Source: Clarias gariepinus
Taxonomy: Eukaryota
Reading direction: 5' to 3'
NCBI RefSeq assembly: GCF_024256425.1
Contig: NC_071115.1
Coordinates: 12,526,746-12,590,745 of the forward strand
DNA length: 64,000 nt
Under the pieces are notes generated by a model that did no database searches, was not told where the DNA came from, and saw nothing but the letters and a program-made list of their open reading frames with translations. This document shows positions 10,163 through 40,610 of this stretch, piece by piece. The position numbers and the translations under genes were made by a program. Position 1 is the first letter of the stretch; every line of letters starts with the position of its first letter.

Positions 10163-10197
<35 letters not shown>

Positions 10198-14774: not shown

Positions 14775-14813
<39 letters not shown>

Positions 14814-16785: not shown

Positions 16786-17114
16786 GATGTGGTTATTAAT
16801 AAAGAATAATAAGAAAATGATAGAACGATTGCATAGAAGATGCTTTAAGTTAAAAGACTGAGAAACACTATATTTAGAGGAAAAAACATGAAACAGGTTC
16901 GGAATTGAACCATATGCCTTTTTAAAATAATAATTAAAAAAAACAACAATAACAACAAGCATATCATTGGTATTAACTCCTGTATACCAATTATAGGCTC
17001 GTTTTTTTTCCTTTTATCTTATAAATAAAATGATCATTTCACAATTTTCCAATGCATTCCACAGGCTTTTATTTTAAACATTCAGATTTTAATTAGAAGA
17101 CAAGTGAAACTCAC

Positions 17115-17247
17115 GTCCCCAGTTGATGACAATGGTAGCAGCAATGATGAGAACTCCTCCCACAAGAGAGACAATCGAGAGGACCTTTGCGTTGCGTCCA
17201 AGACGCCGCGCTCCATCAACATTATCTTGTTGCAGACTGTACCGAGA
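17115..17247 (-). CDS. prrt2: PRRT2-like coding exon 3 (TM2); may extend unspliced to stop TAA at 17091-17089
   Basis: Reads [44 protein letters not shown]. Matches PRRT2 [44 protein letters not shown]. Acceptor ctttctctcag|TCT. The 3' end is ambiguous: a consensus donor C|GTGAGT lies at 17114-17113. Alternatively read-through gives REFHLSSN* followed by AATAAA (plus tttatt 17068-17073). Confidence 0.7.
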
Positions 17248-17494
17248 CTGAGAGAAAGAAACACAAGAGAAAAGAAACTAAGAAAGATAAAAAGATGACA
17301 GAAAAGCACACAGAAAGTCATTTTGAGTAGATTAAATGAAATCTGATATAAGACTGATTCCAAATAAAACTAATTGTATCGTATTGTAAAAAATAATAAA
17401 AAATGATGCATCAACATACAACCCACTACACACGCAACTGTTTTAACACATTTTTAATCAGGAAAGTTAATCCTAAGCTTCTAAACAACTGTAC

Positions 17495-17802
17495 CATAAC
17501 AGAGAACGTCAAGCCGACGATGTTGATGGGCCAAAGTGGGCAGAAGCAGGCAAGTATGGCCAGGAAAAGGTAATCGTTAGGCTTGGTGTCATCTCCTGCA
17601 TTCTCGGTGAGAGCGCTGGGCTGGCGGCTGAGCGAGGGCCGAGGCGACCCAGCATGGCTCAGTGAACCTGAGCGGCTGCCGATGCGGGCATGGCCATGAG
17701 CATGCACATGGCCAGCCTTGGTATGATGATGATGACGAGGGGGAGAAGAACGGGAAGAGGTTGAAGGAGAAGCATCCACAGCATTGGGACAAACTCCATT
17801 AC
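17495..17802 (-). CDS. prrt2: PRRT2-like coding exon 2 (His-rich region and TM1)
   Basis: Reads (S)NGVCPNAVDASPSTSSRSSPPRHHHHTKAGHVHAHGHARIGSRSGSLSHAGSPRPSLSRQPSALTENAGDDTKPNDYLFLAILACFCPLWPINIVGLTFSVM. Acceptor ctcaccag|GT, donor GTTATG|GTACAG. The C-terminal part matches PRRT2 [27 protein letters not shown]. Confidence 0.75.
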
Positions 17803-17959
17803 CTGGTGAGGATAAAGAAATGACAAGAAGAGGAATTGTTGAGAAAAAAGGAATTGGTTGGGTGGTGACAAATAGTCAGGATGTGAGAGAATTGTGTTTG
17901 GTAGATGGTCAGGTTGCATGCCACAAATGACACAAAAAAGCACATGCTAAGAACTTTAC

Positions 17960-18224
17960 TTGTTTCCATCTTTTCATCAATGACCGACAGGTTGTCTTTG
18001 GCCACGCCGTTCATATGGACTGAGCTTTCCAGAGCAGGAGTCTCCGTGTCTGTGGGTGGATCTTCATGCTCCGTCTTCACTGGCTGTGAGGTTATGGGAG
18101 CCTGGCCAGACACGTCATCTGGTTGTTGATTGGTCATTTGCTCAGTTTGTTGCTGCTCTTCTTCCTGCCCCTGCCCTGCACTTAGGGCAGTAGTTGGTGC
18201 GTCGCTGTCGGTGTTCAGAGCCAT
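17960..18224 (-). CDS. prrt2: PRRT2-like (dispanin family) coding exon 1; exon spans 17960-18310 with an 86-nt 5'UTR part
   Basis: ATG at 18224-18222 (atcaagATGG). Reads MALNTDSDAPTTALSAGQGQEEEQQQTEQMTNQQPDDVSGQAPITSQPVKTEHEDPPTDTETPALESSVHMNGVAKDNLSVIDEKMET(S). Upstream acceptor ctctttcccacag| at 18311-18312; donor ACAA|GTAAAG. Low-complexity acidic/proline-rich N-terminus as in PRRT2. Confidence 0.7.
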
Positions 18225-19176
18225 CTTGATGCAAGATGCAGAGTTTGCAAAAATGCCCAATTTCTTTTTTCAGACTAGTGCTGTACTGTGGCTGTCAAAT
18301 TACTGAATATCTGTGGGAAAGAGTTAAAGAATTGTAATGAATTTAATGTTAAAAATAATGAAACTCATTGGATGTACAGAACATGGCGGGAGATTGTTAC
18401 CAGGATGTGGCCTGTTTGTTTTGGTAAATTGGTGTATGATCTGACAACTTTCTTAATTTGAGACTTGAACAGGTGGGAAGGGCTTGTTAGTTGGACAGGT
18501 AGGACTTGTTGGGTGGGAGGTAAACACTTGTCAATGTCTTCCTTTCGATTGCAATTCACTGTGCAAGCAGCACGGGCATCTTATAATTATAGGTTGGTGG
18601 ACTAACGAACAGACAGATATTGAGCACAGATACTGAGCACATTGAGCTCACTAACTATTTATAGAGGGGAATACATTCTGTCTTGCGTGGGACCTTGGAA
18701 TCTTTTTCAGCATTCTGGACACCAACCAATGCACATGAACCATCTTAAAAAGTTCTTAAAATATTCGGCTGCAACTGTGTGTGTCAGGAAATCATATGGA
18801 AGAGGCTTCATGGCAGACCATCAGCTCCACCACCCTACAACACATCTAAGTGACTCTATTGCTCTGCCATGGATCTGGTCTGAAAGGAAACCATTGTTTT
18901 TAAAAAGCATTTTAAAATTTAAATAAGCCTCTGCTGTTTGTGAGGTGAATTGCAATTTCAGTTAAGACATTAGCAGGCTTTCCACCAGTACAGTGTGTCA
19001 GAACTGTGTACATGGAAACTGTGTTTCCATGAGGAAAAAGGGTGGAGCCAAATATTGTTTCAGAAAAGTGTAAACAAACGGCTAAAAATTAAGACAGTAA
19101 TATCGATTCCATATTAAAATCTGGAATTGGATACATTTCATATATAATATAAAAATAAATATAATAAATAACTTCA

Positions 19177-19210
<34 letters not shown>

Positions 19211-20200
19211 AATGGTGTGTATATATATCACAAACTGCACCTTTAAAATTGAATCAAGGCTGATAATGGCTCATACAGTTTCAACAAACCTGACAGTCCT
19301 ACAACTAAAATATGCAACAGAGAGACTATTTTTATCATACTGCATATCAGTAAAATGAGAGCTCACAATAAAATGGTCAGTACTGCTGTTTCAGCTTTTT
19401 CTAAGTGTTGCTTTAAAGTCAAACATGGTTCTGACTCATTCACTTTGCCCTTAACCTAACCTGACACTATAGTAAAGCTAGTGCACCTGCTACCCCCTTA
19501 TAATATATGCTGAGACAAGATATCTAAACACAAAAATGTGCACAGGAGAACAGATATCTGGCTGCATCCCCCTCACATCATTTCTGTGCTCTAAAAGCAA
19601 GTAAATGCCCATTTTAGCCAGATTTAATTCACACTTCGAGGTTATTTTCTTCGAGAGAGCTCTTTGAACCTCTTCTGCAGCGACCTTTTGTTTGCCTGAC
19701 TAGACATTTGCTTTGATAGTCATCCGAATATGCAAAGAGCCAAATTATGCATTATTTTTTAATTTGTGGCCTGTGATTAGGTTCATATTACAAATAGTTC
19801 ATAATTACGTTTTTGCTCGAAGTGAACATGTGTCTCAAGCACGTTTCCTTTGCTACACCCCAAACAGTGCACAGCATGTTCTGATTTTTTTTTCATTGTA
19901 TCTCTGAAATGACATAAACTTTAGACTGTGCTATAAATCCTGTATTGGCCAGGATTCTATTGCTGGGGATGAATGACTGGTTAAAACAGTAATTTTGTGT
20001 TTTGTTGGGTGAAGGAAAGAGATGAGGGGTGGATCAGATGACACACCTATCTCAAAAGCCCTCAATCCCAAATTAATTAAAAAAAAACAAAAAACCAAAA
20101 CAGTGCACATATTCAAAGGCAAATAATCAAATTGCTAGAAGCATACATGCTCTATAATGTATATATGTATATAAGATCAAGTAATTTCATATATTTTTAT

Positions 20201-20205
<5 letters not shown>

Positions 20206-20244
<39 letters not shown>

Positions 20245-20293
20245 AATAGAACATATATGGATGTATAAAAATATATACAATTACATGATTTTG

Positions 20294-20337
<44 letters not shown>
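20206..20337. repeat. (GA)17 and (AT)20 microsatellites
   Basis: agagagagag... at 20206-20240. atatatatat... at 20297-20337. Confidence 0.95.
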
Positions 20338-20339
<2 letters not shown>

Positions 20340-20937
20340 AGGTATGGGGAGACAGCTACACCTATACAGCACCCCAACACCACTGCTCTGCGTTGTCATG
20401 GAGAGCAAGAGTTTCTGGTATTTTATAGCCTACATTTGGGAGAAGATGTTCAAGCACAGTACTACATTTTCAATTCGTTCCGATGCATGACACACCCTTT
20501 CTTAAAAGCCTTCACATGTAAAGATCTAGCAATGCACACGAACAAAAAAACTCCACAAATAGACGAGTGCAGAAATAAAAACGGCGCGAGTTTGCATGCG
20601 TAACGTTACATAAGCTATCGTGAGACTGTGTTTTCTGGTGCCTGATGAAGTTTTGGGGGAATTTCGGAAACATTCCGCATTGATTTCAGCGAGGAGCGTA
20701 AAAGCGTGACACACCCGCGTTTTAAACAAGGCATCTCTCTGTGCGCTGGCCTCAGCGCGAGCTCGATGCGCAAAAGATGGAACGGAGACATGCAGACCCA
20801 CCTTTAGTGCGAGGTGTAGGAGAATGTTCCAGCGGACCTTATCATGGCGAAATATAACGTAAATGAAGGACTGGAAGGAGCCCGGGACTGGGATGCTGCA
20901 CTCAGGTCGAGTTTGAGCGAAACACACTCGATTTTAC

Positions 20938-21130
20938 GCTGTGTGTGTGTGTGTGTGTGTGTCGGAAGAAAGGAACGGGGGGTGCACACAGAAGGAGGCG
21001 CGATTTCACTCGACGCGCGCGCGCGCGGACTGAGGCGCCACCTGACCGCACCGAAGCGCTCGCGCACTCTCCCCTCGCGCCAGCCTGGGCGTCCCCGTGG
21101 CACTGCGCTGCTGCACATTTTATATAGCAG
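20938..21130 (-). promoter_or_regulatory. Minus-strand TATA promoter plus putative non-coding first exon in a CpG island; candidate exon 1 of the PRRT2-like gene
   Basis: The minus strand reads GCTATATAAAATGTGCAGCAGCGCAGTGCCACGGGG (TATA at plus 21118-21128) with CpG-dense sequence downstream. A possible donor GC|GTAAAATCG sits near 20937. It lies 2.6 kb upstream of the acceptor before the PRRT2-like ATG exon. The CpG island spans about 20560-21110. Confidence 0.3.
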
Positions 21131-21299
21131 TTTTCATATCTGGGCTGGTTTACAGTGACTAATGGTGACAGTTAAAATTATTATCATCCAGGTTGTCATC
21201 CTCACTGAGTCCCCTGATTTAATCTGTTTCGCCAACCGAAATTGCTGTTTACCATCTTAAATCACGTGCCATATGATGCTCACTCACTCACTGTCTATA

Positions 21300-21565
21300 T
21301 TGTGTTATCCTGTATACAGGGTCGTGTGGGGCCTGGAGCCTATCCCAGGAGTATGTGTGCACGAGGCAGGGTACATCCTGGATGGGTTGCCAATCCATTG
21401 CAGGGCACACACATACACACACTCACATGCACACTATGTCATTTAGTTCTAATCTGCATGTCTTTGGACTGTGGGAGGAAACCGTAGTACCCAGATGAAA
21501 CCCACCAAGAAAGTGGAGAACATGCAAACTCCACACAGTGCATATCACTGCGCCACTGTTCCGCC
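21300..21565 (-). mobile_element. SINE copy, same family
   Basis: cctgtatacagggtcgtgtggggcctggagcctatcccagg...ggatgggttgccaatccattgcagggcacac... Confidence 0.7.
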
Positions 21566-22544
21566 TCGCCATATGATGCTGATAACCTTTAATAAATGTT
21601 TCTTGTGCTCAGCCACACTGTCTGTGTGTGTGTGTGTGTATGTGTTGCAGTTCTGTTGTGACCCACTTCTTATATTATGCTGTTACCTTCTTTATAAAGC
21701 ATAAGCCTGAACCTATCCATATTATACATGTTCTTAGATTGCAATTTGTTGTTGGTACAAGAAACCATTTTGCTACTACAAAATGTTTCTAAAGAATTTT
21801 TTTTCTAAGAAAACATTCAAGTATTACAGAAAAACATCACTACAAGAAAATATTTAGTTTTTGTTTAATCAGTATTGTCCAAAATGTTGCTGATCAAAAA
21901 AAACTCTTTTGTTACTACTAAAAACATTTAATTACTAGAAAATAACATTTCAGTTTTGTGTAAAATTTTTTTTTTTTTTGGTGCTACAATAAATTTTATC
22001 ACTATATTTACATTTAGGTATTTGGCAGACGCCCTTAAACCAGAGCGAATTACATAGGTACACTTTGTAGGTATTTAGTATAGTCATTAACACCAACCCA
22101 ATTAACTGTGGCTATGCACAACACCTCAGCCCTTTTCTAACCTCTTAATAGAAAGAGTCCACCATAGGCCAGTCACACATTGCAACTTGCACATAGGAAA
22201 ATACGAGATAGTCTCTTACTCTTGATCTACAAAGTAAGCCTAACAAGATAAATACCTTATTTATGACCAATAATATTAAAAAAAATTTTTTTATACAAGA
22301 TACCTTGATCAGACTTGACCCTAAACGCATTAACAAGTAAATACCATTGATTATCTTCTTTTATAACACCTGTTATTGTTTGGGCAGTTCCAGTATTTCA
22401 TAACAGCAGTGGTCGGTTTCAGGAGGATTTTTGCTACGCTGCAAAAATTGTTCAGGAAAGGTTTGAGGATCATGACCAAAAGTACAAGATGTTGATGCAG
22501 ACTCCAAATTCCCTGGCTCTTTTATGTGATCGGGCATCTGTAAG

Positions 22545-22760
22545 ATGTGCCGAACAAACAAATCTGGTCCTCAAAGGCCCACCTTACATCTCCAGATACC
22601 TCATCACACCGTTAGAGTTCTTGTAGAGTCCATGCCTCAGTGTGTCAGACCATTTTTGGAAGCACAAGAGAAAGCTATGTACATGATATTAAATGAAGCA
22701 GTTATAATACCATGGTTGATCAGTGTATGCATTAGAAGAGATCCACTGCAAACTGGAGTG
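22545..22760 (+). mobile_element. Tc1-like transposase C-terminal fragment
   Basis: Reads ...IPHHTVRVLVESMPQCVRPFLEAQ..., resembling the Tc1-family C-terminus (IPQHTFRGLVESMPRRVRAVLAAKGGPTQY). Confidence 0.5.
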
Positions 22761-23536
22761 GACACATGTTTGATCCACTTATTTCAAACATCATAATAAA
22801 ACTGGTCCTGGACCAGTAAACAATTCATAAAGTGATTGTACAAATAAAAATTGTGGTTGTGCATTTTAAAGTACGTTGAAAAAAAAAACAGTGCACACTG
22901 AAAAAAGAACAGCATTGTCAAAGTCAAACGAAGTTAAAACAAGATTGTCAAAGTGTAATACATTATTAATGATTCAGGATCATCTGTGAAATGGCTTTGC
23001 ATTACATATCAACACTGGTTGTTTCTGCAACATCGTCAGCATTGCTTCATTGTTAACTTTGGCACAAAAATGAACATGCTTTTTTTGACTAACGTTGACT
23101 TTTTCCAGAGCATGGTCGTGAATCACAGTATAGTCACTCTGTCACCCAAAACAGCTGACCATCACAAACTGTAAACAAGCCCGGTTACCAAGTATGTAAC
23201 AGTTAAAGTCATGGGCAGGAGAAAATGTATCATACATTTCAAAGTTTATTTGATACTTATAAATGCACATGTAGTAGACAAAGATACATTCTTTTAGTTC
23301 ACTGCATGTTTCATAAGGCTTTGGTGGGTATGCTAAGAAAATTATTCCTTAAATGTTTAGTCAGGCACCTTGTTAAAGCAAATATATTTGCATAGAATAC
23401 ACTGCAATGTACTATTGCAAAGCATTTCTCTTACTACACCGTTTTCTCTGATAGTAGTAACGTTTTAGGAACTCAAACAACATAAAAGATGTCTGATAAA
23501 ACAAACAAACAAAAATTGCATTATAAGTGGGACGTA

Positions 23537-23542
23537 TTTATT
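23537..23542 (-). terminator. mvp: mvp polyadenylation signal AATAAA (minus strand), about 25 nt after the stop
   Basis: The plus strand reads tttatt at 23537-23542. A second candidate lies at 23246-23251 (plus tttatt) for a longer 3'UTR. Confidence 0.45.
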
Positions 23543-23565
23543 GTCTTGTCAGTTTCCCGGTTCTT

Positions 23566-23688
23566 CTACTTTTCCTCAGGGGTCTTCATCGCCCCCAGCA
23601 GGCCATTAGCAGTAGTGAACAGATTGATAGGAGAGGAGCCATCTGTTATCAGAGTGGATTTAAGACCCAGAGCTTGTAGAAGTTTAAC
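23566..23688 (-). CDS. mvp: mvp terminal coding exon (includes stop TAG at 23568-23566)
   Basis: Reads [40 protein letters not shown]. Acceptor tccatccag|GTT. Matches human [32 protein letters not shown]. Total CDS is 2619 nt, 872 aa. Confidence 0.9.
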
Positions 23689-24136
23689 CTGGATGGAGAG
23701 GGAAAAAAACAGCAGCAATGAGTGAATAAACAGCACTAATAATCAGAAATATAATAAAACACGTTAGAAGTTTAGAAGAAGAAAACGACTGGATACATGG
23801 TGAGCGAATCTCGAAATTTTTTATACCTCCTTGTGTATTACATCATATTAAATTATTAAAATTATTGAATTAATTACTTTATCATGTGGTGGTACAGTAG
23901 AAAAAAATTTAATCAAACACCACAATAACCATGAGATGGTTAAACACTTATCCATGATTTTTTTCTTTAAAGATATGATCATATTCCTTCCCGCAGTCAA
24001 GCCTTTTTACCTACAGTATACTCACTATTTCAGCCAGATCTACAAAGTCAATCCACACGACCTGAGTGCCTGGTGCAATAAAGCTCATTTAACCTAGAAG
24101 AAATACAGGAGGTCTGGGTCTGTGAGTGCCGCGTAC

Positions 24137-24325
24137 CTGTAGCTCTGGTCCAGCTCTGGCCATCTCCGTCAAAGTGCCACTGCCAATAGCTTCTACCAGC
24201 TGCTTGAAACGTTGGCTTTCGATCTCAGACAGTTTCTGCTGCTTCTCCACTTCCTGGCGATCCAGTTCCTTTTTATAATTGAGCTCCTGCTCACGTGCTT
24301 TTGCCAGACGCACCAGTTCAGCTTC
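24137..24325 (-). CDS. mvp: mvp exon 16
   Basis: 63 codons: EAELVRLAKAREQELNYKKELDRQEVEKQQKLSEIESQRFKQLVEAIGSGTLTEMARAGPELQ. Acceptor tatcttag|GAA, donor CTACAG|GTACGC. Matches human [64 protein letters not shown]. Confidence 0.85.
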
Positions 24326-24734
24326 CTAAGATAGAATTAGTGTAGGAAACCATGAGTGTAATACATTATTTCAAAATTAAAATGGCCATACACAGATGAG
24401 ATCATACTTTCAGAAATGTGCAACTACTGCCTTTAAATTTAAATGCAAATCTTGGTGGAGAGAGGCTCAAACACTGGGAGCAATTAATTAATCATCTTGA
24501 TACCCTATTAAAATGAGAGAATGGAAGTACAAAGAAGAGAGAAACAAAGACCGAGAGAGAGACAGCGAGAGATTGTCAAAGATATTAATTACCTAAGAAG
24601 AAATACTGCCAGCTCTGCATACTGTATTCTACTGGGATTATGAAATGCTAATGTACGCGTGCCCACACAAGTGCCTGTGTGTGAGACATGCTGATGAACT
24701 GCACATACGTGACGCTAAGAAAAGAAAGACGTAC

Positions 24735-24861
24735 CGCTTCTATTCTCTGGGCTTCAACTTTGAGTTTGGCCTCTTCAACAGCAGCCTCACCCTGGATACG
24801 TGCTGCCTCTGCCCTGGACTGAGCTTCTGCCTTTGCTGCTCCTGTACTCTCCACTGCAGCA
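24735..24861 (-). CDS. mvp: mvp exon 15
   Basis: Reads (S)[42 protein letters not shown]. Acceptor (GT)14-ttgtag|T, donor GAAGCG|GTACGT. Matches human [41 protein letters not shown]. Confidence 0.85.
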
Positions 24862-24865
24862 CTAC

Positions 24866-24893
24866 AAACACACACACACACACACACACACAC
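24866..24893. repeat. (CA)14 microsatellite on plus, (GT)14 on the mvp strand, abutting the exon 15 acceptor
   Basis: acacacacacacacacacacacacacac lies directly 3' (plus) of the acceptor at 24862-24863. Confidence 0.95.
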
Positions 24894-25468
24894 ATTAATA
24901 CTAAGGAATACACAGTTTGCTGTTTTGTGCTATTGTAGCTGTAATATATAGGCTATAAAAGTAATAATACTTAAGAATAATGCATTAACACAAATCAGCC
25001 ATGACTAACACCATCGCCTGGTGAAATGAACAACACTGATTATCAATTATATACCAGGAAAAAAAAAAAATCAATGCTGGCTGTGATAGAAAGGCACCAC
25101 AACACCCAGTGAATCACAGCCTGCCATGTTCTGGGCCCAATAGGCAAACCGTTGAAGATTGTTGACCTGGCCTACAAATTCCAAAAAGGCCGATCCAAAG
25201 GGGCCCAAACCCAAAGAACTCATGGGTTTGCATCTTTTATCCTGGCGTCAGACATGACAGTACACCCCCATACTGGCCAGAGCTGCCAGAAAGGGGAACC
25301 AAAAAAGCTGGGTGGTTTTAAAAATATAAGTGATTGGTGTATATGGCCAACCAAGTTGAAAACACATTATTGTGACAAACTTCTAACCATACTTTGTCCA
25401 AAGACCCACTTGCATTCTAGTCTCCATTTCTTCAGCCTTGCTGGGAGCGAGAAGCAGCAAGATCTTAC

Positions 25469-25585
25469 CTGAGAGCTTCCAGCTCTAGCAGCTCCTTCCT
25501 GGCCCTCTCAGCATCCGCCTGGTCTGTGATCTTCTGCCTCTCCAGTTTGCCCCGTGCCTCCTGCTCCAGACGCTCCGCCTCATGC
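25469..25585 (-). CDS. mvp: mvp exon 14
   Basis: Reads (R)[38 protein letters not shown](S). Acceptor cactctcag|G, donor CTCAG|GTAAGA. Matches human [40 protein letters not shown]. Confidence 0.85.
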
Positions 25586-27482: not shown

Positions 27483-27483
<1 letters not shown>

Positions 27484-27520: not shown

Positions 27521-27532
27521 TGCGCGCTTTAC

Positions 27533-31486: not shown

Positions 31487-31723
31487 CTTCACCACTCTCT
31501 TCTGTCCAAGCTGGGGCTTTCCATCAGGCCCGACTGGGTCCAAGATCACACAGTACTCCCTGCTGCTCAGCGTGGTCACATCCACAACCCCGACAACTTC
31601 CTCAGCCACAGAGGGGATGTGCGCTTCTCTGTCCGCCACCGTCACCAGCCACTCCTCTCCTGTCCTTCTGTCTCGCCCTCCTGCATCCCGGAATGGACGC
31701 AGAGCACGAACGTGCAGTGCACG
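31487..31723 (-). CDS. mvp: mvp exon 7
   Basis: 79 codons: [79 protein letters not shown]. Acceptor ttttatcccgtcag|CGT, donor GTGAAG|GTAGTT. Close match to human MVP. Confidence 0.9.
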
Positions 31724-31889
31724 CTGACGGGATAAAAGCATTAATGGATTCAAACTTAACGCAATAACAAAAGATCCTCTGAGTAAGCCCTTTTTTTTGG
31801 GAGGGGGAGATATTTTCATAAACGTCATGCATCTGCTCTATGCTACAGTATGCACATTTACAAAATTGGTTATGAAGAAAAGCTGTTAC

Positions 31890-31984
31890 CTTATCAGTGA
31901 GGATGAATGCATTCACAATATCGATGACCTCCTCATGCGCTCCAGGAAGGTATGCTCCAACCTTACTGACCTGCCACTCCTCAC
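31890..31984 (-). CDS. mvp: mvp exon 6
   Basis: Reads (G)[31 protein letters not shown]. Acceptor gcgtcag|GT, donor GATAAG|GTAACA. Matches human [32 protein letters not shown]. Confidence 0.9.
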
Positions 31985-32340
31985 CTGACGCACACAAACA
32001 CATCCACAATCACATGCTAATGTAATCAGCTTGCCAATTATCTTTGCATTATTTAAGCACAATAGGTTCACATTAATAGTGTGTAGAAAATGTGATTCTC
32101 AGGTATTTGTTGAAAAGCCTTGTACCAGCAAAGTATCCAAGTGTCTGCTGTGAACTTTGCTATTTTGCATAACTATTTTGCATGTTATGAGGGGCGTTCA
32201 AGTCAAACTGGGACTACTGTGAATGAAGGAGTAGAACCAATTCTTAGACTTTGCTTTGCCGTAGTAAACATTCAAATGGTGCTCTGGGATAAGTGCATTA
32301 TTTAACATTTTTTTTTTAGAAAAAAAAAAAAAAAAAAAAA

Positions 32341-32785
32341 CGGTTTTCTCCGAGTGGTGCAGTGGTAAAGTGCTCGCCCTATCATCTGGCAATCGCTGGT
32401 TCGATTTCCAGATGATGCTGTAACCTCTCGCAGCCGGAGGTCTAGAGAGAGCTGATTGGCTGAGCTCTCTCAGAGGGGAGGGATGAGAGGTACTTTGTGC
32501 TCCCACATTAATCACAGCTGTACAGCCAATCACGGGCGTCTGTGAGCTCACACAAGCAGAAGGAGTGGATAGTGCTGTCCTTGTAGTGTGTTACGCCGCT
32601 CCTAACGGTGAGTGAGCAAGCAGTTCGAAAAGATGTGACGTCATGTGGTTCGGAGGAAACATGTGATAGTCTTCGGCCCTCCCGACTGAGTGGTACTAGT
32701 AGCCTTAATATGGGAGTCCCCTCGTGATGGGGAGGAATTGAACACAACCAAACCAGGGAGAAAAATAAAAAATAAAAATAAAACA
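32341..32785 (+). mobile_element. Different tRNA-derived SINE with A-rich tail, in mvp intron 5
   Basis: Head gagtggtgcagtggtaaagtgctcgccct..ggttcgatttcc. Tail aaaaataaaaaataaaaataaaa. Preceded by T9/A22 homopolymers. Confidence 0.55.
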
Positions 32786-32947
32786 GTTTTCTAGCATCTT
32801 TTGCACGAAAATGGACTATCCCGGTTTGATTTGAACGCCAGTCATGTATTCCTGGGACAACAATGTAATGGTATTGATTGATAACTTAGGTGTTTGAGGA
32901 AAAACTGTTTTTTACATGTGTGTGACACGTGTCGTGTATATGCTAAC

Positions 32948-33079
32948 CGGTCACTCTTCGAACTCCGCTGCGATCAACGCCCTCTTTACGAGCACGAAGG
33001 CGAATGGCCTGGTTTTCCCGAATCACTGTGGCTTTGATGGTCTCCAGGACAGCCACCTCCTTCTTGGGGATGTATGTTC
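32948..33079 (-). CDS. mvp: mvp exon 5
   Basis: Reads (G)[43 protein letters not shown](G). Acceptor ccttcag|GA, donor ACCG|GTTAGC. Matches human [33 protein letters not shown]...RVTG. Confidence 0.9.
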
Positions 33080-33299
33080 CTGAAGGAGGTCAGAGACTAT
33101 GGGTTAGCCAGGCGTAGGTGATGCGGTGGAAATATATAAAAATATACAAGATTTAGATAAATAATCCACGAACAATATCAGCACAGAATCTAGCTTTGCT
33201 AGTTAACATCATAATACAGTCATATATTTAAAAGTGAATTGTTAAAATATGGAGAATGCTGGTTTTAGTTTGAGGAGGAGTAAAAGAAAGTTAAGCTAC

Positions 33300-33423
33300 C
33301 TGGCCCCTCAAACAGCCACTCATCTCCAGCCACTCTCTTCTCTCCATTATCCTCTTCGAAGTCAAGAAGAGCCTGCAGCCTGAGTGCCGTGTCAGGATAC
33401 ACGATCTGCAGTGGGGTCACTTC
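33300..33423 (-). CDS. mvp: mvp exon 4
   Basis: Reads [41 protein letters not shown](G). Acceptor tattag|GAAGTG, donor CCAG|GTAGC. Matches human [42 protein letters not shown]. Confidence 0.9.
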
Positions 33424-33578
33424 CTAATACGCAGAAAAGGTTATAGGTTAGTAAATATATATTTATGAAGTCCTTTAGGAAAAGCAGTTAGAGGTCACCT
33501 GATTAAAAGACGCTTCTTGTATAAACTCTATAATATAATACAAAATTGAAAGGGATGAAGTGAGATCAAACAGCCCAC

Positions 33579-33774
33579 CTTCTGGATCTCTTCTCCAGGG
33601 TAGAGAGGAAAAGGATCTTGGGTCAGACGGATCTCCAGGTCTGCATGGCGGAGCTTAGCCTGGCCTGAGGTGTCAAACTGGACCTCTCCCTCATCATCAC
33701 GAGCCACCGGGTTCAAAATCACACAGTAATGGCGAGGGGGCACCATGAGCATACGAGTCGGGGAGAAGAGAACC
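33579..33774 (-). CDS. mvp: mvp exon 3
   Basis: Reads (R)[65 protein letters not shown]. Acceptor ttctcag|G, donor CAGAAG|GTGGGC; the phase fits exon 2. Matches MVP repeat 1-2. Confidence 0.9.
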
Positions 33775-34509
33775 CTGAGAAAAGGTGCAAGATGTAGAAG
33801 AGTAAATGAAATACAAGTGCAGATATCATGGCACACTTCAAGATGGGCACAATCCATCCATCTAGGAACCTCTATAATAAAACTGGGGACTGTGGAGGCC
33901 AATAGTGATTACCGTGTGTATACTGTGTGTGTATACAAGTCAATGATTAAGTCAATTAACCTGTCCAACAGGTCTTCGGACTAAAGAAAGAAAATACAAC
34001 TGTAAGGTTTCTGATGTTGTGCAAGCTTTCCCATGTCTCCATGTCCATGAAACATCCTCCTTCACTTCCTCATTTTATATATGGCAATACCTACTATAGC
34101 CTGTGTCTGGATGAACTCATGCAAAGTGCTCGCTGGAACCCTTTTGTTTAACCGAAATAGGCAAATGTGCATCCCATAGTCGGTCTGTCTCTCGGTCTCT
34201 ATATGACCTGCATGTTAATGCAGCAAAAAACAAACAAAACAGGATGTATGTGACAGAGGGCACATGGTCATGCATGTGTCCCTCTCTTCTCGATCAGGGT
34301 CTAGGAATAGTTGAAACAAGGCAGAATTCATACTGAATGGGCTGCGATCAAAAGACATCTTGATTAGAGGACACCAATCACACACTCATTCACGCCTTAG
34401 AGGCAACTGAGTGTAGGCAAATTCACCTACCTGCTGGGTTACCTTTTTTTCCTGGAATAATTGATATAAATAAAAAGACGATGCACACTGGCTTCATGTT
34501 GCCCTACAT

Positions 34510-34750
34510 GTCTAGGGTTATGGGTTTGATTAATTTCTCAGGTCGGTGTGCATGGAGTTGGTCTGTTCCCCTCTGGCTTGGTGGGTTTCCTCTGGGTACT
34601 CTTGTTTCTTTCAGTCCAAATATGTACTGTATAAGCTGACCGGTGTTTCCAAATTGCACAAGTGGGTATGCTTGCACTTTGCGATGAGTTAGTACCACAT
34701 CCAGAGTGTACCCTACCATGTGCACCAAGTTCCCTGGGACAAATTCTACG
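34510..34750 (+). mobile_element. SINE copy (5' truncated)
   Basis: ggttatgggtttgat..gtgcatggagttggtctgttcccctctggcttggtgggtttcctctgggtac...cagagtgtaccctaccatgtgc. Confidence 0.6.
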
Positions 34751-36740
34751 CACACATGTACTTACACAGGATAAGCAGTATAGACAATATATGGATAGGA
34801 TACAAAAGAGAGCAACCCAACCTCCTTGGAGCATGAAACAATAGGCCCACAGTTATACCCACTCTGCCACCACGCCACCCCTGGAAACCTTCTGTTTGTT
34901 GGAAATCTGACCCCAGCCAACAAGCCTACACATGTTATTCCAAACAATGGTTTTGGCCTGGCTTAGAAAGATCAAATTTAGAAAAGGAGAATATTTTTCA
35001 AGCAGTAAGATCACCTCCTCTTAACAGAAACATTAAAGTATCCTTTACACAAAAAGGATTATTATTTTATTCTTATTATTGTCCACAATTTTCATTTTCC
35101 TCATCAGTTCCTAATTTTGGTCATACTGCTTAACAAAATCCTCAGATTTCCACCCATGGAGAAGAGATCACAGATGCCCATGAGAAGCTATGGTCACTGA
35201 CTGGGTAAAGAGAGTATGCTAAGCATCTCTACAGATAACATGATCACCTTTGCTCCGTAAACCTTTGGTGCATGTTAAAAATTCACAACTGAGATCTCTC
35301 AATGATAAAGCGGACACTTTCCTGTACGGCTGTACAAACTCCTCTTTAAGAGAACATCAACAGGTGTTCTTACAGGTGCAGCATTGAATGTTTGTTAATA
35401 GACAAGTATTAATCACAGAATACAAGACACTATGATTTTATTATGCACATATCTGATTTGTTTCTTTAGTTTAGGCCTCAATTTTAGATTTTTCTGACAT
35501 GTGGTTTAGCTTTGTCCTTGGCTCAAACTCCTAAAGAAAAGAGGCTCAGCTTTGTCGATTTTCCTTAAAAAGCAGATCTAGTTTAAAAAAAGGTTTGGGG
35601 CTTTTGGAGAGAAGAGAATGGATCTTTTAATTGCAGTGTAATTGACCTTGCCAGCAGTAAAGGACTTTAAAAATGATCAACAGCTTCTTTAATAGCGATA
35701 TTTAAATCATTGTATGACCTCAATGAATAGATTGTGACTATGTACCTTGTATGATCATAACAGATCATGTTTCTCTCTTTTTAGTGAAGATATAGCTGAG
35801 AGATATCAGTAAATCCTAACAACTATTTTCTTAAAAAACTGCACAAATCAGTGTCTAAAACTCCTGATTTTAAGCATGAGTTTTATTACTCTTTATAGAA
35901 GTTTCTTTTATGCAGAAATGTTTTTAAAAGCATCTTTTGCTTATGCCATATTTTTATATGTGCCCAAGACTTTTCCACAGTACTATAAGTAAAATAGTTG
36001 TTAGGTTTTACTGAGCATGCTGGAGAATATGAGTTCTTCTGGTAACCTTGTCACACTCGCTTCTTTCTATTTTTATGCAAATCCCAGGAGCGTGCATTAG
36101 GTTTTTTGTTTTCTGAAAACTGGTCTGTCTTGTACCATATTTTTTTTCTTTACCACCATACATATGTTCTCCTGTAATGGCAATGTGTATAACAAAATTA
36201 GTATTGGCGACCGCACGAAACCGTGTAGGTGTGATAGGGGTATTAAAAATTGAGGGGATTGCTTTGTTAAGTTGCACAGCATCCTGTGTGGTAAGCAGAT
36301 TGTGCTTAGGTACTTTTCATGCATCTTTACTTGAATGATTTCTATATTTATTACTTTTACTCACTGTATTTATGCTGAAAAACTTCATACATGAAGTAAA
36401 TATACAATCTGCACTGTTTTTCTAACCTAACCGTAATCATTTACGTTATCAACTTACACCATATCAAAACAGACAATTCCACAAGTCCAAGTGGTCCAAG
36501 TTTACAGGAATTTATGTTATGAGGTTATGAAGGCGCAGCTTGATTACTTAAGCAGTGGGTCGCACCCACTTGGTCTGCGGATTCTCCTGACTTTCTGACT
36601 TAATCCTGTCAGAGTATGATTAGAAGTGATCTAATCGTACTAATCTACTCATACTTAAGAACTAAAAGAAAGTCTGCAGATGGTATGATTAGATTAGTAC
36701 AATTAGATCACATCTTGACACTCATTTCATATTTTCATAT

Positions 36741-37261
36741 TCAGTGTTGGGGACCATTACTTTTTAAAGTAACTAATTACATTACAAAATACTATCTTTA
36801 AAAAGTAGTCAGTTACATTACAGCATTACTTTCTGATAAAAGTAACTAGTTAGGAGTACTTTTTCATTGCAGAAAACCAAAACTCCTTTGTGGTTCCTCA
36901 TGCATGTTGTTTTAGTCAAGCCCTTTATAATTATACTAATAACTACTAATACCCCTATCCCCAGTTTCGCGCGGTGGCCGTAAGTACGGTCCATCATGAT
37001 TTACTGCGGGATAGGGGTACAATAGCAGGAATAACGGGCGGGTTATTGGGGGCAAAACTTGTAGAACGACTTTCACAAACACACACAATAACGGATTGGA
37101 AATGACTGCTGTCTGGCTCATGGACTGCATAAATTGTCGGAATAACGGATTACATTTTTAAAAAAAGTAACTAAATACTTAAATGGTGGACATAATGCAT
37201 TAGATTACCCGTTACCTCAAAAAAGTAATCCAAGTACTCTAATGCGTTACACCCAACACTG
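36741..37261. mobile_element. Non-autonomous hAT-like DNA transposon in mvp intron 2
   Basis: Terminal inverted repeats CAGTGTTGGGGACCATTACTT... and ...GCGTTACACCCAACACTG. Internal subterminal repeats gtaactaa/gtaatcc. Flanks ttcatatt / tccatata resemble a decayed 8-bp TSD. Confidence 0.55.
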
Positions 37262-37381
37262 TCCATATACTGCTTTTAATTCCATGATTGATAAATATGC
37301 TTTTTTTTTTGGCTGTACTTAGGTAGCAGCATGATATTGTATTGGGTTGTCCCTGGTAATTCACATCCCTAGAGTGGTTAC

Positions 37382-37542
37382 CTCTCATTATCCTGGCGGA
37401 TGTAGGTGAGGGGTCCAACCTCAACCCGAGCAATGTTGGTGTTCTGATCCAACACATGGATGTAGTGGTGTGGAGGAATCCTGATGATTGAAGCGTCAGT
37501 AAGATCGCTGTGCTCCAGGTGACCTGCAGGTCTCTTCGACAT
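37382..37542 (-). CDS. mvp: mvp coding exon 1 (exon 2 37382-37545; ATG at 37542-37540)
   Basis: Translates [54 protein letters not shown], matching the MVP N-terminus ([16 protein letters not shown]...YIRQDNERV). Acceptor cag|ATCATG, Kozak A at -3; donor GAGAG|GTAACC; ends in phase 2. Confidence 0.9.
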
Positions 37543-40461
37543 GATCTGAGTGGGACAGAGGGGAGCGTTTATTGATTGTGAAGTCAATTATGTGTCAGCA
37601 ATCAATCAGTGATAAAACACTCAACCAAAATCTAACAGCATCCAGGGAGTAAAGTGCTGACTCTGATAAAGCATGTATCAACTTTTTAGCTATAATAAAA
37701 TACACAATTATTCAGCTAAAAGTAAAACAAAATAACATGCTACGTTATTGTAAATATACAGTATGCGGGATAATTATGTTAGCTAAAACTCCTGTAAATA
37801 CAAAAAGGTTGACTTGACCGTCAAATGACAGTAATTATACAGACAAGTGTACAAATAGAGATTTGAAAAACAGCAAAAAAAAAATTATTAATATTTTAAT
37901 TCTGATTTCTCTTACATAACAAGGTTTTAAAAAATGCTTTTAATCATGAAAACCATCTTGCTACATAATAAAAAAATTCTTTGTAATAGGCCATGTAATA
38001 TCTTTATTACCAGACACACCACAATTCTTATCTCTTTATAGCCACAGCAATATGATAAGGTTACTATGGAGGTGAACGTTGTAAGATAGGAAGACTGTGA
38101 ATGAGTGGGTCTCACTAGGGTTCACGGCGAACTTTGACTGTCAAACCTGATCACTGAACCACATAGCGAATTACATACATAAGCGTCTGTACAAAAAACA
38201 TGCACACACCCACACCTGCCTTTCGCAAGCCTAAGAACAAAGAAGATTGCATTTTGTTCCCAGCCCTAACTATACTTACTCAAATGGCCCAGTGCAAATA
38301 AAGGTAGCTAAATGACAAGGTAGTGTTTATTTGACCACCTGACATGTATAAATCATAAAAAGAAAAGAAATAGAGCAAAAGGGCTGGGCCAAGCATGACA
38401 TCGAGATCAAGAATTGCAGATAGACAGGTATGAATTATCAGTTTGTTTTATCATAACTCACCCATAAAACACATTGTCACTTAGTCAGTATGGACAACCA
38501 AATTTTGCTAGGGTTCAAACTGAATTTTCAAAATGACTAGCAAACTGTATTTTTGAAAATTTTGTGAAGTCAATTATTAAAAAAAAATTTTCTGAATGTG
38601 TAAAAGAAGGAGAATCCATCATGTGATTCTTAACGTTGCTGATTACATAATTATTAGTGAGCCTGCTAAGGATTTCTGCCTGCTACTTCTTTTTAAACAT
38701 AAGAGCCAGAAGCAATAGTATTCCATGTCTATGTTCATGACATTTAAGGAAACTTACATAGTTCACTTCTCATACGGCTTTTGTTGTTACTTTATTCTTG
38801 AAATCTGATTTGAAATATGTACCATGCTGATCAGGATTTAGTTCCAAGAAAAGAAAAAAACAACATATATAGATTATACTATTCAAAGTAATGTAAAAGC
38901 AAGACTCGTATGTCTAGATTTAACATTCTATGTAATGCATTAAAACAAGCATTTTAAAAAAGTTTTTAAATTTTTTTAATTTATGATTAAGCACGCATTT
39001 ATACATGTATAAAATACATGCACTTTCCTGTACATCAACTTGAATAAAAGAAATACTTTAACCACTTCCAGCACTTGGGTCATTCTACAGAAAAGGTGGA
39101 ATTTGGGTAATAAAAATCTCCTGAAATGCATTTCTTCTTTCACACCCAGAACTTTTTTTTCATAGCAATAACTTTCTTTTTAACTTCCACTTGAATCCAT
39201 AAAAAATAGAGCTTAATGCCTTTTTTTTAAACATACATTTAATGCTCGCTTTCTAGTAAAACCAATGGCAATTTCTGACAGTTATAATTATAAAAAGAGT
39301 AACACCAATGATGGACTTAAAAGCTTCGCATAGAATTGCGAAATAAATTATGACATTTTTAAATAAATTAAGACAGACATCAGACATACATTTCGCATTC
39401 GTCCAGTTCTCTCTATCTAGTGACCTCTGATGTAGCAACAATTTTAAATTGTCGGAAGTCTTTCAAAATAAAACGCCTGATGTCCAACAGTAACATCAAT
39501 TACATAGTTTGGGGTGACATATCTATTTCATATTATAAATTCCTCAGTTATTGTTTTACAATTTTGGTGTTTCACATATTTTTTAAGACATCAATGTTAT
39601 TGTGAAACAGATATATTTGATAAAAAAAAGCCTTTAGGTGAACAAGTACATAGTACCACTTTGATGTATAATCAAAGTGACAAAGCATTTCTTTGAACTT
39701 GGTCTCGCTTCAATTAAATACTGAACATTGAAAAGAGAGAGAATGTATTTCATGATTGTAAGTACATACTATATTTTCATATACATAGACAAGTAATGTG
39801 TCTGTTATGTTATATATGCCATTTAAATGATTTTGTCATCAGCAAACCTAAATCACAGGACTTTCCACCATCTTTGTGGAATGATTCAAACTCACGTGAT
39901 TTGTTTGTTTGTTTGTCTGTATTTTTTCCCTGTTACAAAATAAAACAAACACGGAAATACTAACCATGTATTAGAATAAACAAAGGCTGTAATTTATTTG
40001 GGGGTAACACAAGTCAAAGCGGTAATTAAAGAAAAACAAACGAAAGAAAGACGCTTCCGCATGGAGGACGGAGGTGTGGCACAGAGTAATGCAGCACAAC
40101 GTTTGCGCTTTATTAACTGATATAAACGGTACAGCCTATAGAATCCTTACAAAACAGGAGCTTTCATGTAGTTTTTTTAAAACAAACATCGAGTTATTAC
40201 AAGCTGTCTAGGTGACGTCGCTCATTTCACTTCCGTATTGCTAGCCTGCTCCGAGGCTGAGGCTAAATCTCCCGACTTTAATTCCTTTCATATTAACTGT
40301 GTATTAAATAAACAACCACATTACATAACTCTTAACCCTAACCGAAACGCGCACTTTTTCCAAATTACTGAGAGTTACGATGTCAACGCAGTTCAATTTG
40401 CTGTCAAAACATAACGCATAATGAAAATATTATAACAAATAAAATTAAAACCAGTACTTAC

Positions 40462-40610
40462 GGAGAATTTGGTGAAGGCGTCAAGGTTGGAGTGAATGGA
40501 AGGAGTTTGTGTCTGGAGTGCGGAGCAATCCTGTGTGTCAATCTCCTTAACCTGTGGGCGTGACGACGCTTTACGCCACATCACCTTCCGGGAAGCGAAA
40601 GAAAACGCTT
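40462..40610 (-). other. mvp: mvp 5' non-coding exon 1 (5' boundary approximate)
   Basis: Minus-strand exon ends AAATTCTCC|GTAAGT; the donor GT is at 40461-40460. It pairs with the acceptor cactcag just upstream of the ATG exon at 37545. A TATA-like/GC-box promoter lies immediately upstream (higher coordinates). Confidence 0.5.

What the first reader, a model, noticed from the sequence alone, without database searches (positions are those of the whole stretch)
17089..40610. Conserved PRRT2-MVP neighbourhood (human 16p11.2 block), with rearranged order and orientation
A dispanin gene lies 5 kb from the MVP 3' end. Its two predicted TM helices match PRRT2 nearly residue for residue ([68 protein letters not shown]). 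In human, PRRT2, PAGR1 and MVP are consecutive on the same strand in 16p11.2. Here both genes are on the minus strand, so MVP is transcriptionally upstream of PRRT2. No PAGR1-like exon is detectable between them. This suggests an ancient linked pair with local inversion or gene loss.
Basis: partly seen in the sequence, partly recalled or inferred. Interest (0 to 1): 0.55.

Follow-up and report, generated by a model that had tools for sequence, protein, structure and literature searches.

The report
Catfish MVP–PRRT2 gene neighbourhood, already annotated
This stretch of African catfish DNA carries the major vault protein gene followed 5 kb later by one of two fish copies of the brain gene PRRT2, an ordinary and already annotated case of neighbouring genes staying linked since fish and humans diverged.

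Summary
The window is Clarias gariepinus. On the minus strand lie a complete 16-exon MVP gene (CDS 37542-23566) and, 5,341 bp downstream, a 4-exon dispanin gene (CDS 18224-16340). Its product is identical to RefSeq XP_053370994.1, "proline-rich transmembrane protein 2".

The gene is a PRRT2 orthologue, not TRARG1 or TMEM233. Support comes from a tree (PRRT2 clade, 71% bootstrap), separate trarg1 and tmem233 genes in fish, a shared N-terminal motif and synteny.

No PAGR1, CDIPT, SEZ6L2, KIF22 or MAZ coding sequence is detectable anywhere in the 64 kb.

The interpretation needs three corrections.
- Teleosts have two PRRT2 copies. This one (A) sits next to MVP. The other (B) sits downstream of KIF22, as in human.
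- Only the gene order is swapped relative to human. The shared orientation is kept, so a single inversion cannot explain it.
- PAGR1 is not lost from teleosts, because a zebrafish homologue is published.

The tight MVP→PRRT2 pair was found only in the three Otophysi examined. It was absent within 10 kb in eight other lineages.

The finding's lower coordinate cuts off the last coding exon and a probable 3' UTR of about 2.8 kb. This is routine comparative genomics of low novelty.

The parts
16340..18224 (-). PRRT2 copy A, coding region. Exons are 18224-17960, 17802-17495, 17247-17115 and 16356-16340 (includes the stop codon).
   Evidence: The spliced translation is identical to P0001 / XP_053370994.1. 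Pfam CD225 matches at E=4.7e-22 over residues 162-228. The intron after M191 lies in the loop between the two hydrophobic helices. tblastn matches break at residue 191/192 in 7 of the 11 other loci and within a few residues of it in 2 more.
13547..16339 (-). Probable PRRT2 3' UTR, a non-coding block conserved between two catfish families.
   Evidence: A blastn block of 3,067 aligned columns at 73% identity links window 16385-13547 to the sequence just after the Ictalurus PRRT2 last exon. The UTR assignment is inferred; there are no transcript data.
18225..23565 (-). MVP-PRRT2 intergenic interval (5,341 bp) with no detectable protein-coding gene. It contains the MVP 3' UTR and a probable PRRT2 promoter region.
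   Evidence: Six-frame ORFs of 25 aa or more gave no Pfam family. tblastn with PAGR1 gave no hit. The interval is collinear with Ictalurus at the DNA level in all frames, with the strongest block at window 20126-19229 (74%). It shares nothing with the zebrafish interval by blastn or tblastx. Rfam gave no match.
23566..37542 (-). MVP (major vault protein) coding region, 16 exons and 870 aa in this model. Exons: 37542-37382, 33774-33579, 33423-33300, 33079-32948, 31984-31890, 31723-31487, 31201-31076, 30396-30202, 29643-29408, 27730-27533, 26659-26515, 26320-26109, 25585-25469, 24861-24735, 24325-24137, 23688-23566.
   Evidence: tblastn hits are collinear and all junctions are GT-AG. Pfam matches: Vault 4e-63, MVP_shoulder 1.7e-52, Vault_3, Vault_2, Vault_4. 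PDB MVP chains match at 1297 bits, residues 15-863 against 3-851. The model length equals the 870-residue zebrafish product. The acceptor at 30396 and the ATG at 37542 are the least certain points.
40461..40610 (-). Putative non-coding first exon and promoter of MVP (unverified).
   Evidence: Read directly from the sequence: a CCGGAAG motif near 40590 and a consensus donor CCG|GTAAGT at 40461/40460. No transcript or cross-species support was obtained.
54184..59156 (-). DNAL4-like dynein light chain gene, the next gene upstream of MVP. It is not a 16p11.2 gene in human.
   Evidence: tblastn finds exons at 59156-59085, 55408-55316 and 54405-54184. Pfam Dynein_light matches at E=1.6e-18.
4105..4359 (-). 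First coding exon of a zinc-finger gene downstream of PRRT2 on the same strand. It is orthologous to the Ictalurus C2H2 zinc-finger neighbour.
   Evidence: blastn links window 4511-4310 to L005 21446-21656, where the called Ictalurus zf-C2H2 gene starts. The same N-terminal domain lies next to PRRT2 copy A in Lates (E=2.7e-17) and Arapaima (E=1e-14). No C2H2 finger motif occurs inside the window.

Best explanation
The interval is an ordinary, already annotated gene neighbourhood of the African catfish. On one strand it reads DNAL4 ... MVP → 5.3 kb → PRRT2 (copy A) → zinc-finger gene.

The dispanin gene is one of two teleost co-orthologues of human PRRT2. They most likely arose in the teleost whole-genome duplication. 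After that duplication the two copies of the ancestral 16p11.2-like segment kept different neighbours. Copy A kept MVP. Copy B kept KIF22 just upstream on the same strand, as in human.

In the A segment, at least in Otophysi (catfishes and zebrafish), MVP lies upstream of PRRT2 rather than downstream. Both genes still point the same way. That requires a transposition or two or more inversions, not one inversion. PAGR1 is not in the interval or the window, but it persists elsewhere in teleost genomes.

Shown here: gene identities, exon structures, order, strand, spacing, absence of other coding sequence, the existence and distribution of two paralogues, and the KIF22→B adjacency.

Inferred: the whole-genome-duplication origin of A and B, which lineage made the order swap, and the functions of the products. 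MVP would form the vault shell. PRRT2 would be a CD225-domain membrane protein regulating Nav channels and SNARE-dependent release, as reported for mammalian and zebrafish PRRT2 in PMC13568701.
For: - Species and annotation: P0001 is a 100% match, and RefSeq calls it PRRT2.
- MVP.
- PRRT2 orthology, tree: in a neighbour-joining tree of 70 sequences over 99 columns, teleost A, teleost B and non-teleost PRRT2 form one clade (71% of 500 bootstraps). It is apart from TMEM233 (79%) and from the TRARG1 sequences.
- PRRT2 orthology, identity: the peptide is 63-72% identical to PRRT2 from ray to mammal, against 41-65% for TRARG1 and TMEM233.
- PRRT2 orthology, other genes: fish have their own trarg1a, trarg1b and tmem233, including a catfish trarg1b and a bowfin TRARG1.
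- PRRT2 orthology, motif: the SPRPSL(S/C)RQPS motif is shared by all PRRT2 groups but differs in TRARG1 (SPSRxSL).
- Two paralogues: Clarias has a second PRRT2 (XP_053367959/60) on another chromosome. Each of groups A and B contains elopomorph, osteoglossomorph and clupeocephalan sequences. Only one PRRT2-type sequence each from gar, bowfin, bichir and sturgeon appeared in the hit lists, which is not a copy-number census. B is teleost-wide.
- Synteny: MVP→A on the same strand at about 5 kb in Danio, Ictalurus and Clarias. KIF22→B on the same strand in Triplophysa, and KIF22-PRRT2 fusion mis-annotations in two Silurus species.
- Human order: PRRT2, PAGR1, MVP, CDIPT is the listing order in a 16p11.2 review, taken here to follow chromosome order. 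Human strands come from my own knowledge.
- No other coding sequence.
Against: - The tight pair was not found within 10 kb of PRRT2 copy A in Lates, Esox, Anguilla or Arapaima. It was also not found near the single PRRT2 of gar, bowfin, sturgeon or Xenopus. Continuous retention of the adjacency since the fish-tetrapod ancestor is therefore not demonstrated.
- Tree support is moderate: A 45%, B 60%, A+B+holosteans 53%. The alignment is only 99 columns and the method is neighbour-joining.
- PAGR1, CDIPT, KIF22 and MAZ were searched with human sequences recalled from memory plus Pfam on ORFs. A very divergent or very short exon could be missed.
- PAGR1's position in Clarias was not determined.
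Confidence: 0.85

Rival explanations
1. The MVP-PRRT2 adjacency in Otophysi is a secondary re-juxtaposition, not an inherited one. The two genes were separated early in ray-finned fish and brought back together by rearrangement within the same ancestral chromosome segment.
For: No MVP lies within 10 kb of PRRT2 in eight non-otophysan lineages, including both holosteans, a chondrostean and a frog. The order differs from human. The zinc-finger neighbour is shared more widely (Arapaima, Lates, catfishes) than the MVP neighbour.
Against: Two genes that sit about 10 kb apart in human becoming direct neighbours again by chance is improbable, on the order of 1 in 10,000 for random placement. Absence within 10 kb does not exclude linkage at 20-200 kb. 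Zebrafish 16p11.2 homologues cluster on chromosomes 3 and 12 (PMC3484866), so the block as a whole is retained.
Confidence: 0.12
2. The dispanin gene is an orthologue of TRARG1 (TUSC5) or TMEM233 rather than PRRT2. NCBI names many of its fish orthologues that way.
For: Many group A and B proteins are labelled 'trafficking regulator of GLUT4 1' or 'tumor suppressor candidate 5 homolog'. The peptide's identity to bird TRARG1 is as high as 65%.
Against: Fish have separate trarg1a, trarg1b and tmem233 genes. The tree places group A inside PRRT2. The N-terminal motif is of PRRT2 type. Both paralogues sit beside human PRRT2 neighbours, MVP and KIF22. RefSeq calls this very protein PRRT2.
Confidence: 0.02
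3. One reading: a single local inversion and/or loss of PAGR1 produced the present arrangement from the human-like order.
For: The order differs from human and no PAGR1 is present in the interval.
Against: Simple geometry rules out one inversion. Inverting a co-oriented pair preserves which gene is upstream. Inverting one gene alone makes the pair convergent or divergent, yet both genes are on the minus strand here. A zebrafish pagr1 (c16orf53) homologue exists and has a knock-down phenotype (PMC3484866).
Confidence: 0.03
4. The juxtaposition is an assembly artefact.
For: None specific.
Against: The same arrangement and spacing occur in three independent assemblies of three species. DNA-level collinearity between Clarias and Ictalurus runs through the whole interval and beyond.
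Confidence: 0.01

Closest known systems
Human 16p11.2 segment KIF22-MAZ-PRRT2-PAGR1-MVP-CDIPT
   Same: PRRT2 and MVP are close neighbours transcribed in the same direction. The PRRT2 exon structure, with its loop intron, and the MVP domain order are conserved.
   Different: The order is swapped, with MVP upstream here. There is no PAGR1 between the two genes, and no KIF22, MAZ or CDIPT in 64 kb. The outer neighbours are DNAL4 (22q13 in human, from my own knowledge) and a fish zinc-finger gene.
Zebrafish and channel catfish mvp - prrt2 (copy A) loci (L001, L005)
   Same: The gene pair, strand relation and roughly 5 kb spacing are identical. Non-coding DNA is collinear with Ictalurus, and the downstream zinc-finger gene is shared with Ictalurus.
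   Different: There are only sequence-level differences. The zebrafish PRRT2 copy A gene has much longer introns (11 kb gene).
Teleost PRRT2 copy B (Clarias XP_053367959/60; Triplophysa locus L004)
   Same: It has the same family, CD225 domain, N-terminal motif and exon layout, and it is also a PRRT2 co-orthologue. It is 72% identical to copy A over the 68-residue core.
   Different: It lies downstream of KIF22 (human-like) with no MVP. It has distinct sequence signatures (GFVYS..LEQGNIDGA..RVAKLLS and the C-terminal end NLSINVKS) and forms a separate clade (99.8% bootstrap for the clupeocephalan members).
TRARG1/TUSC5 and TMEM233 (the other dispanin subfamily B members)
   Same: They share the CD225 domain with its C-F-C motif and two hydrophobic helices.
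   Different: Identity is lower. The N-terminal motif is different or absent. Separate fish orthologues exist, and the human chromosomal neighbourhoods differ (17p13 and 12q24, from my own knowledge).

Membership tests
PRRT2 (dispanin subfamily B member 3) | CD225/dispanin domain with two hydrophobic helices and the C-F-C motif in helix 1 | tested here: met
   Pfam PF04505 matches at E=4.7e-22 over residues 162-228. 'ACFCP' is present in the sequence. The C-F-C motif is described as typical of subfamily B in PMC3282796.
PRRT2 (dispanin subfamily B member 3) | Conserved intron in the loop between the two helices (argues against a retrocopy) | tested here: met
   The exon 2/3 junction falls after M191. 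tblastn matches break at residue 191/192 in 7 of the 11 other vertebrate loci and within a few residues of it in 2 more. The feature is described in PMC3282796.
PRRT2 (dispanin subfamily B member 3) | Groups with PRRT2, not TRARG1 or TMEM233, in a phylogeny that includes fish TRARG1 and TMEM233 | tested here: met
   Neighbour-joining, 70 sequences, 99 columns: the PRRT2 clade including the window protein has 71% bootstrap and TMEM233 has 79%. Support is moderate and no likelihood method was available.
PRRT2 (dispanin subfamily B member 3) | Proline/serine-rich N-terminal region with the SPRPSLxRQPS motif before the domain | tested here: met
   The alignment shows the motif in teleost A and B, bichir, gar, shark, frog and reptile PRRT2, with a near variant (SPRGSL) in mammals. 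TRARG1 has SPSRxSL.
PRRT2 (dispanin subfamily B member 3) | Chromosomal neighbourhood shared with human PRRT2 | tested here: met
   MVP is adjacent. The sister paralogue is adjacent to KIF22.
PRRT2 (dispanin subfamily B member 3) | Function: neuronal expression, modulation of Nav channels and of SNARE-dependent release | not testable with these tools
   Only the literature bears on this. A zebrafish PRRT2 of 226 aa promotes Nav1.2 slow inactivation (PMC13568701). That length fits copy B, not copy A (232 aa).
Major vault protein | Vault repeat domains, shoulder domain and C-terminal cap-helix region in the canonical order, full length | tested here: met
   Pfam Vault, Vault_2, Vault_3, Vault_4 and MVP_shoulder all score above their cut-offs. 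There is one collinear match to solved MVP chains, residues 15-863 against 3-851, at 1297 bits.
Human-type 16p11.2 micro-synteny (KIF22-MAZ-PRRT2-PAGR1-MVP-CDIPT-SEZ6L2) | PAGR1 between PRRT2 and MVP | tested here: not met
   No Pfam family, PAXIP1_C included, in ORFs of 25 aa or more from 18280-23570. No tblastn hit. No coding-type conservation with zebrafish.
Human-type 16p11.2 micro-synteny (KIF22-MAZ-PRRT2-PAGR1-MVP-CDIPT-SEZ6L2) | PRRT2 upstream of MVP on the same strand | tested here: not met
   The strand is shared, but MVP is upstream of PRRT2.
Human-type 16p11.2 micro-synteny (KIF22-MAZ-PRRT2-PAGR1-MVP-CDIPT-SEZ6L2) | Other block genes (KIF22, MAZ, CDIPT, SEZ6L2) flanking the pair | tested here: not met
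   Pfam scans of the flanks (ORFs of 50 aa or more on the left, 53 aa or more on the right) found only Dynein_light and a transposase fragment. tblastn for CDIPT, KIF22 and MAZ was negative. Short exons could be missed.

The most novel reading that the evidence does not exclude
Teleosts, zebrafish included, carry two PRRT2 co-orthologues that divided the ancestral 16p11.2 neighbours between them (MVP with copy A, KIF22 with copy B). Zebrafish work on 'prrt2' would then have addressed only copy B. That includes the morpholino study that saw no phenotype and the 226-aa construct used for Nav channel assays. The mvp-adjacent copy A (XP_001338924, now labelled 'uncharacterized protein') would remain unstudied and could mask loss-of-function phenotypes. 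The constant 5 kb head-to-tail MVP→PRRT2 spacing in Otophysi might also reflect shared regulation or read-through transcription.
Probability: 0.35. Interest if true: 0.3.

Novelty: already known. Interest (0 to 1): 0.1.

Why it matters
It matters little beyond bookkeeping. Both genes are already annotated in the public Clarias gariepinus RefSeq, and conserved micro-synteny of 16p11.2 genes in fish has been discussed since 2012.

There are two useful by-products.
- There is a clear statement that fish have two PRRT2 co-orthologues with complementary retained neighbours. This is relevant to zebrafish models of PRRT2 and 16p11.2 disorders. It also bears on the inconsistent 'TRARG1/TUSC5' labels that NCBI gives these proteins.
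- The 2012 dispanin paper stated that subfamily B is tetrapod-only and lost in zebrafish. That claim is superseded.

Tried and rejected
- Look-up of the exact Clarias protein's contig: not on record. The neighbourhood was therefore confirmed through other species.
- Supplementary table of zebrafish chromosome positions in PMC3484866: not held.
- Biopython neighbour-joining with bootstrap: timed out. It was replaced by a numpy implementation.
- First hand-set exon coordinates for PRRT2: wrong by 1-2 bases. An exact-match exon walker fixed them.
MVP, DNAL4 and KIF22 gave the expected hits, which validates those three recalled queries. The weak MAZ hits in L007 and L008 (30-38% identity) are generic C2H2 similarity, not MAZ. 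PAGR1 and CDIPT gave none anywhere.
- Pfam on six-frame ORF packs of the intergenic region and both flanks: nothing beyond Dynein_light, a Sleeping Beauty helix-turn-helix fragment and two sub-threshold chance hits (Interfer-bind, KH_BICC1).
- Rfam on the whole window: no match.
- Tandem repeats in 16-41 kb: only an (AT)20 run and a weak 37-bp repeat.
- Regex scan for C2H2 fingers: none real in the window.
- Gar, bowfin, sturgeon, Xenopus, Esox, Anguilla, Lates and Arapaima PRRT2 flanks (±10 kb): no MVP, PAGR1 or KIF22.
- A third homology search on MVP was considered and rejected as unnecessary.

Full report
**Source and observation.** It is split between two open frames near 17.5 kb and 17.2 kb. 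Reading the sequence gave canonical splice sites. A homology search with the assembled protein returned a 100% match, P0001 (240 aa), from Clarias gariepinus. An exon walker that demands exact identity to P0001 placed four coding exons at 18224-17960, 17802-17495, 17247-17115 and 16356-16340. P0001 is RefSeq XP_053370994.1, 'proline-rich transmembrane protein 2 [Clarias gariepinus]'. The gene is therefore already annotated. The finding's lower bound (17089) cuts off the last coding exon. A block conserved with channel catfish (3,067 aligned columns, 73% identity) runs on to about 13547 and is probably the 3' UTR.

**MVP.** tblastn with a recalled human MVP gave 16 collinear minus-strand exons. 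A splice-aware assembly produced an 870-aa model with GT-AG at every junction, CDS 37542-23566. It matches Pfam Vault, Vault_2, Vault_3, Vault_4 and MVP_shoulder well above their cut-offs. It aligns end to end with solved MVP chains at 1297 bits. The distance from the MVP stop to the PRRT2 ATG is 5,341 bp. Both genes are on the minus strand, so MVP is upstream. I could not verify it.

**Is the dispanin PRRT2?** NCBI labels for its fish relatives are mixed: PRRT2, TRARG1 and TUSC5. I therefore tested the question directly.
- A search of 50%-identity cluster representatives recovered PRRT2, TRARG1 and TMEM233 from across vertebrates. Cluster names identified them.
- Fish have their own trarg1a, trarg1b and tmem233. 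These include a catfish trarg1b and a bowfin TRARG1 distinct from the bowfin PRRT2-type protein.
- In a neighbour-joining tree (70 sequences, 99 columns, 500 bootstraps) the window protein falls in a clade of all PRRT2-type sequences (71%). That clade is separate from TMEM233 (79%) and from the TRARG1 sequences.
- The 68-residue core is 63-72% identical to PRRT2 from ray to mammal. It is 54-65% identical to the tetrapod and bowfin TRARG1 sequences, 41-53% to teleost trarg1a/b, and 41-54% to TMEM233. 'Nearly residue for residue' is an overstatement, but the assignment is right.
- The motif SPRPSLxRQPS just before the domain is shared by all PRRT2 groups and differs in TRARG1.
- The intron in the loop between the two helices is a dispanin hallmark (PMC3282796). 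It lies after M191 in the window gene. tblastn matches break at residue 191/192 in 7 of the 11 other loci and within a few residues of it in 2 more. This rules out a retrocopy.

**Two teleost copies.**
- The representative search revealed a second fish group, B. It includes a second Clarias gariepinus protein (XP_053367959/60) on a different chromosome-scale contig.
- Each of groups A (window type) and B contains elopomorph, osteoglossomorph and clupeocephalan members. Only one PRRT2-type sequence each from bichir, sturgeon, gar and bowfin appeared in the hit lists. This fits the teleost genome duplication, but that origin is inferred and the hit lists are not a copy-number census.
- B is present across teleosts.
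- Two Silurus annotations fuse B with KIF22.
- In Triplophysa the B gene lies 2.5 kb downstream of a kinesin gene on the same strand. That gene's product hits the Pfam kinesin motor, microtubule-binding and HHH_3 families, and its motor region matches KIF22. This is the human-like arrangement.
- Several cypriniform B genes carry the NCBI symbol 'prrt2'. The zebrafish PRRT2 used in a 2026 Nav-channel study is 226 aa. That fits B rather than zebrafish A, which is XP_001338924.4, 232 aa, now labelled 'uncharacterized protein'. This last link is inference.

**Neighbourhood in other species.**
- MVP lies directly upstream of PRRT2 copy A, on the same strand, about 5 kb away, in zebrafish (L001) and channel catfish (L005). 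tblastn confirmed both.
- The Clarias and Ictalurus intergenic intervals align collinearly at 64-77% identity in all reading frames, which marks them as non-coding. Nothing in them is shared with the zebrafish interval by blastn or tblastx.
- No MVP, PAGR1 or KIF22 was found within 10 kb of copy A in Lates, Arapaima, Esox or Anguilla. None was found near the single PRRT2 of gar, bowfin, sturgeon or Xenopus.
- The tight pair is thus shown for all three Otophysi examined. Elsewhere it is either looser than 10 kb or absent. The tools could not reach further.

**What else is in the window.**
- Six-frame ORFs of the 5.3 kb interval hit no Pfam family.
- The left flank (1-17100) gave only two sub-threshold chance hits.
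- The right flank gave a dynein light chain (E=1.6e-18) and a transposase fragment.
- tblastn identifies the dynein gene as DNAL4-like, with exons at 59156-59085, 55408-55316 and 54405-54184 on the minus strand.
- There was no hit for PAGR1, CDIPT, KIF22 or MAZ and no Pfam sign of SEZ6L2-type domains. Rfam found nothing.
- The ORF at 4359-4105 (minus strand) is the first coding exon of a zinc-finger gene. It is orthologous to the C2H2 gene that begins 10 kb downstream of Ictalurus PRRT2 copy A. The same N-terminal domain lies next to copy A in Arapaima and Lates.

**Interpretation.** A 16p11.2 review lists PRRT2, PAGR1, MVP and CDIPT in that order, which I take to follow chromosome order. That all three of PRRT2, PAGR1 and MVP are on one strand in human is my own knowledge. 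In the catfish both genes are still co-oriented but MVP comes first. A single inversion of the pair preserves which gene is upstream. Inversion of one gene alone would make them convergent or divergent. The difference therefore needs a transposition or at least two inversions. Which lineage changed cannot be decided without outgroup maps. PAGR1 loss is unlikely for teleosts, because a zebrafish c16orf53/pagr1 homologue was isolated and gives a knock-down phenotype (PMC3484866). That paper also reports that zebrafish 16p11.2 homologues cluster on chromosomes 3 and 12 with shuffled order. This matches two duplicate segments that retained different genes.

**Comparison with known work, and verdict.** The 2012 dispanin paper stated that subfamily B is tetrapod-only and lost in zebrafish. 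Current annotations and this analysis supersede that. Nothing here is mechanistically new. This is a correctly spotted, already annotated gene pair showing partial conservation of 16p11.2 micro-synteny. The refinement is that it involves one of two teleost PRRT2 co-orthologues. Interest is low (0.1). The only mildly useful lead is that zebrafish PRRT2 studies may have overlooked the mvp-adjacent copy.

Noticed in passing
window 54184-59156 (minus strand): A DNAL4-like dynein light chain gene is the next recognisable gene upstream of MVP. In human, DNAL4 is on 22q13 (my own knowledge), so the 16p11.2-type synteny ends right after MVP. The 17 kb between them holds only transposon debris, for example a Sleeping Beauty helix-turn-helix fragment.
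   Followed up: partly
window 4105-4359 (minus strand); L005 21446-21656; L007 1611-1775; L008 14688-14861 and 17762-17941: A zinc-finger gene with a characteristic N-terminal domain (MSNLEILNSYLMERLAVAVREILE...) neighbours PRRT2 copy A in Clarias, Ictalurus and Arapaima, downstream on the same strand. In Lates it is upstream and divergent. This neighbour is shared more widely than MVP. The domain has no Pfam match and may be the fish-specific 'FiNZ' domain (from memory, untested). The finger exons lie outside the window.
   Followed up: partly
window 13547-16385 (minus strand): A block downstream of the PRRT2 stop codon is 73% identical to Ictalurus over 3,067 aligned columns. It is probably an unusually long, conserved 3' UTR and possibly a target of post-transcriptional regulation.
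   Followed up: no
window 19229-20126 (minus strand): This is the strongest non-coding conservation inside the MVP-PRRT2 interval (74% over about 980 bp against Ictalurus), 1-2 kb upstream of the PRRT2 ATG. It is a candidate promoter or non-coding first exon of PRRT2.
   Followed up: no
L004 (Triplophysa rosa) 1-24680: At the copy B locus the order is KIF22 → PRRT2 copy B → a gene with an EABR (CEP55-type) domain, all on one strand. No MAZ lies between KIF22 and PRRT2, unlike human.
   Followed up: no
database names: NCBI product names for both teleost PRRT2 co-orthologues are inconsistent. They include PRRT2, TRARG1, TUSC5 homolog, TMEM233 and 'uncharacterized protein', sometimes for the same gene in sister species. 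Two Silurus records fuse copy B with KIF22.
   Followed up: partly
window about 11.4-12.5 kb, 16.4-16.8 kb, 21.3-21.6 kb, 47.4-47.8 kb, 50.9-51.2 kb: Several copies, in both orientations, of one interspersed repeat give look-alike ORFs (…CSPCAWWVSSGxSxFLPQSKDMQVRLIGDxKLP… and its reverse frames). It is probably a fish SINE-type or tRNA-derived element. One copy lies just downstream of the last coding exon of PRRT2.
   Followed up: no
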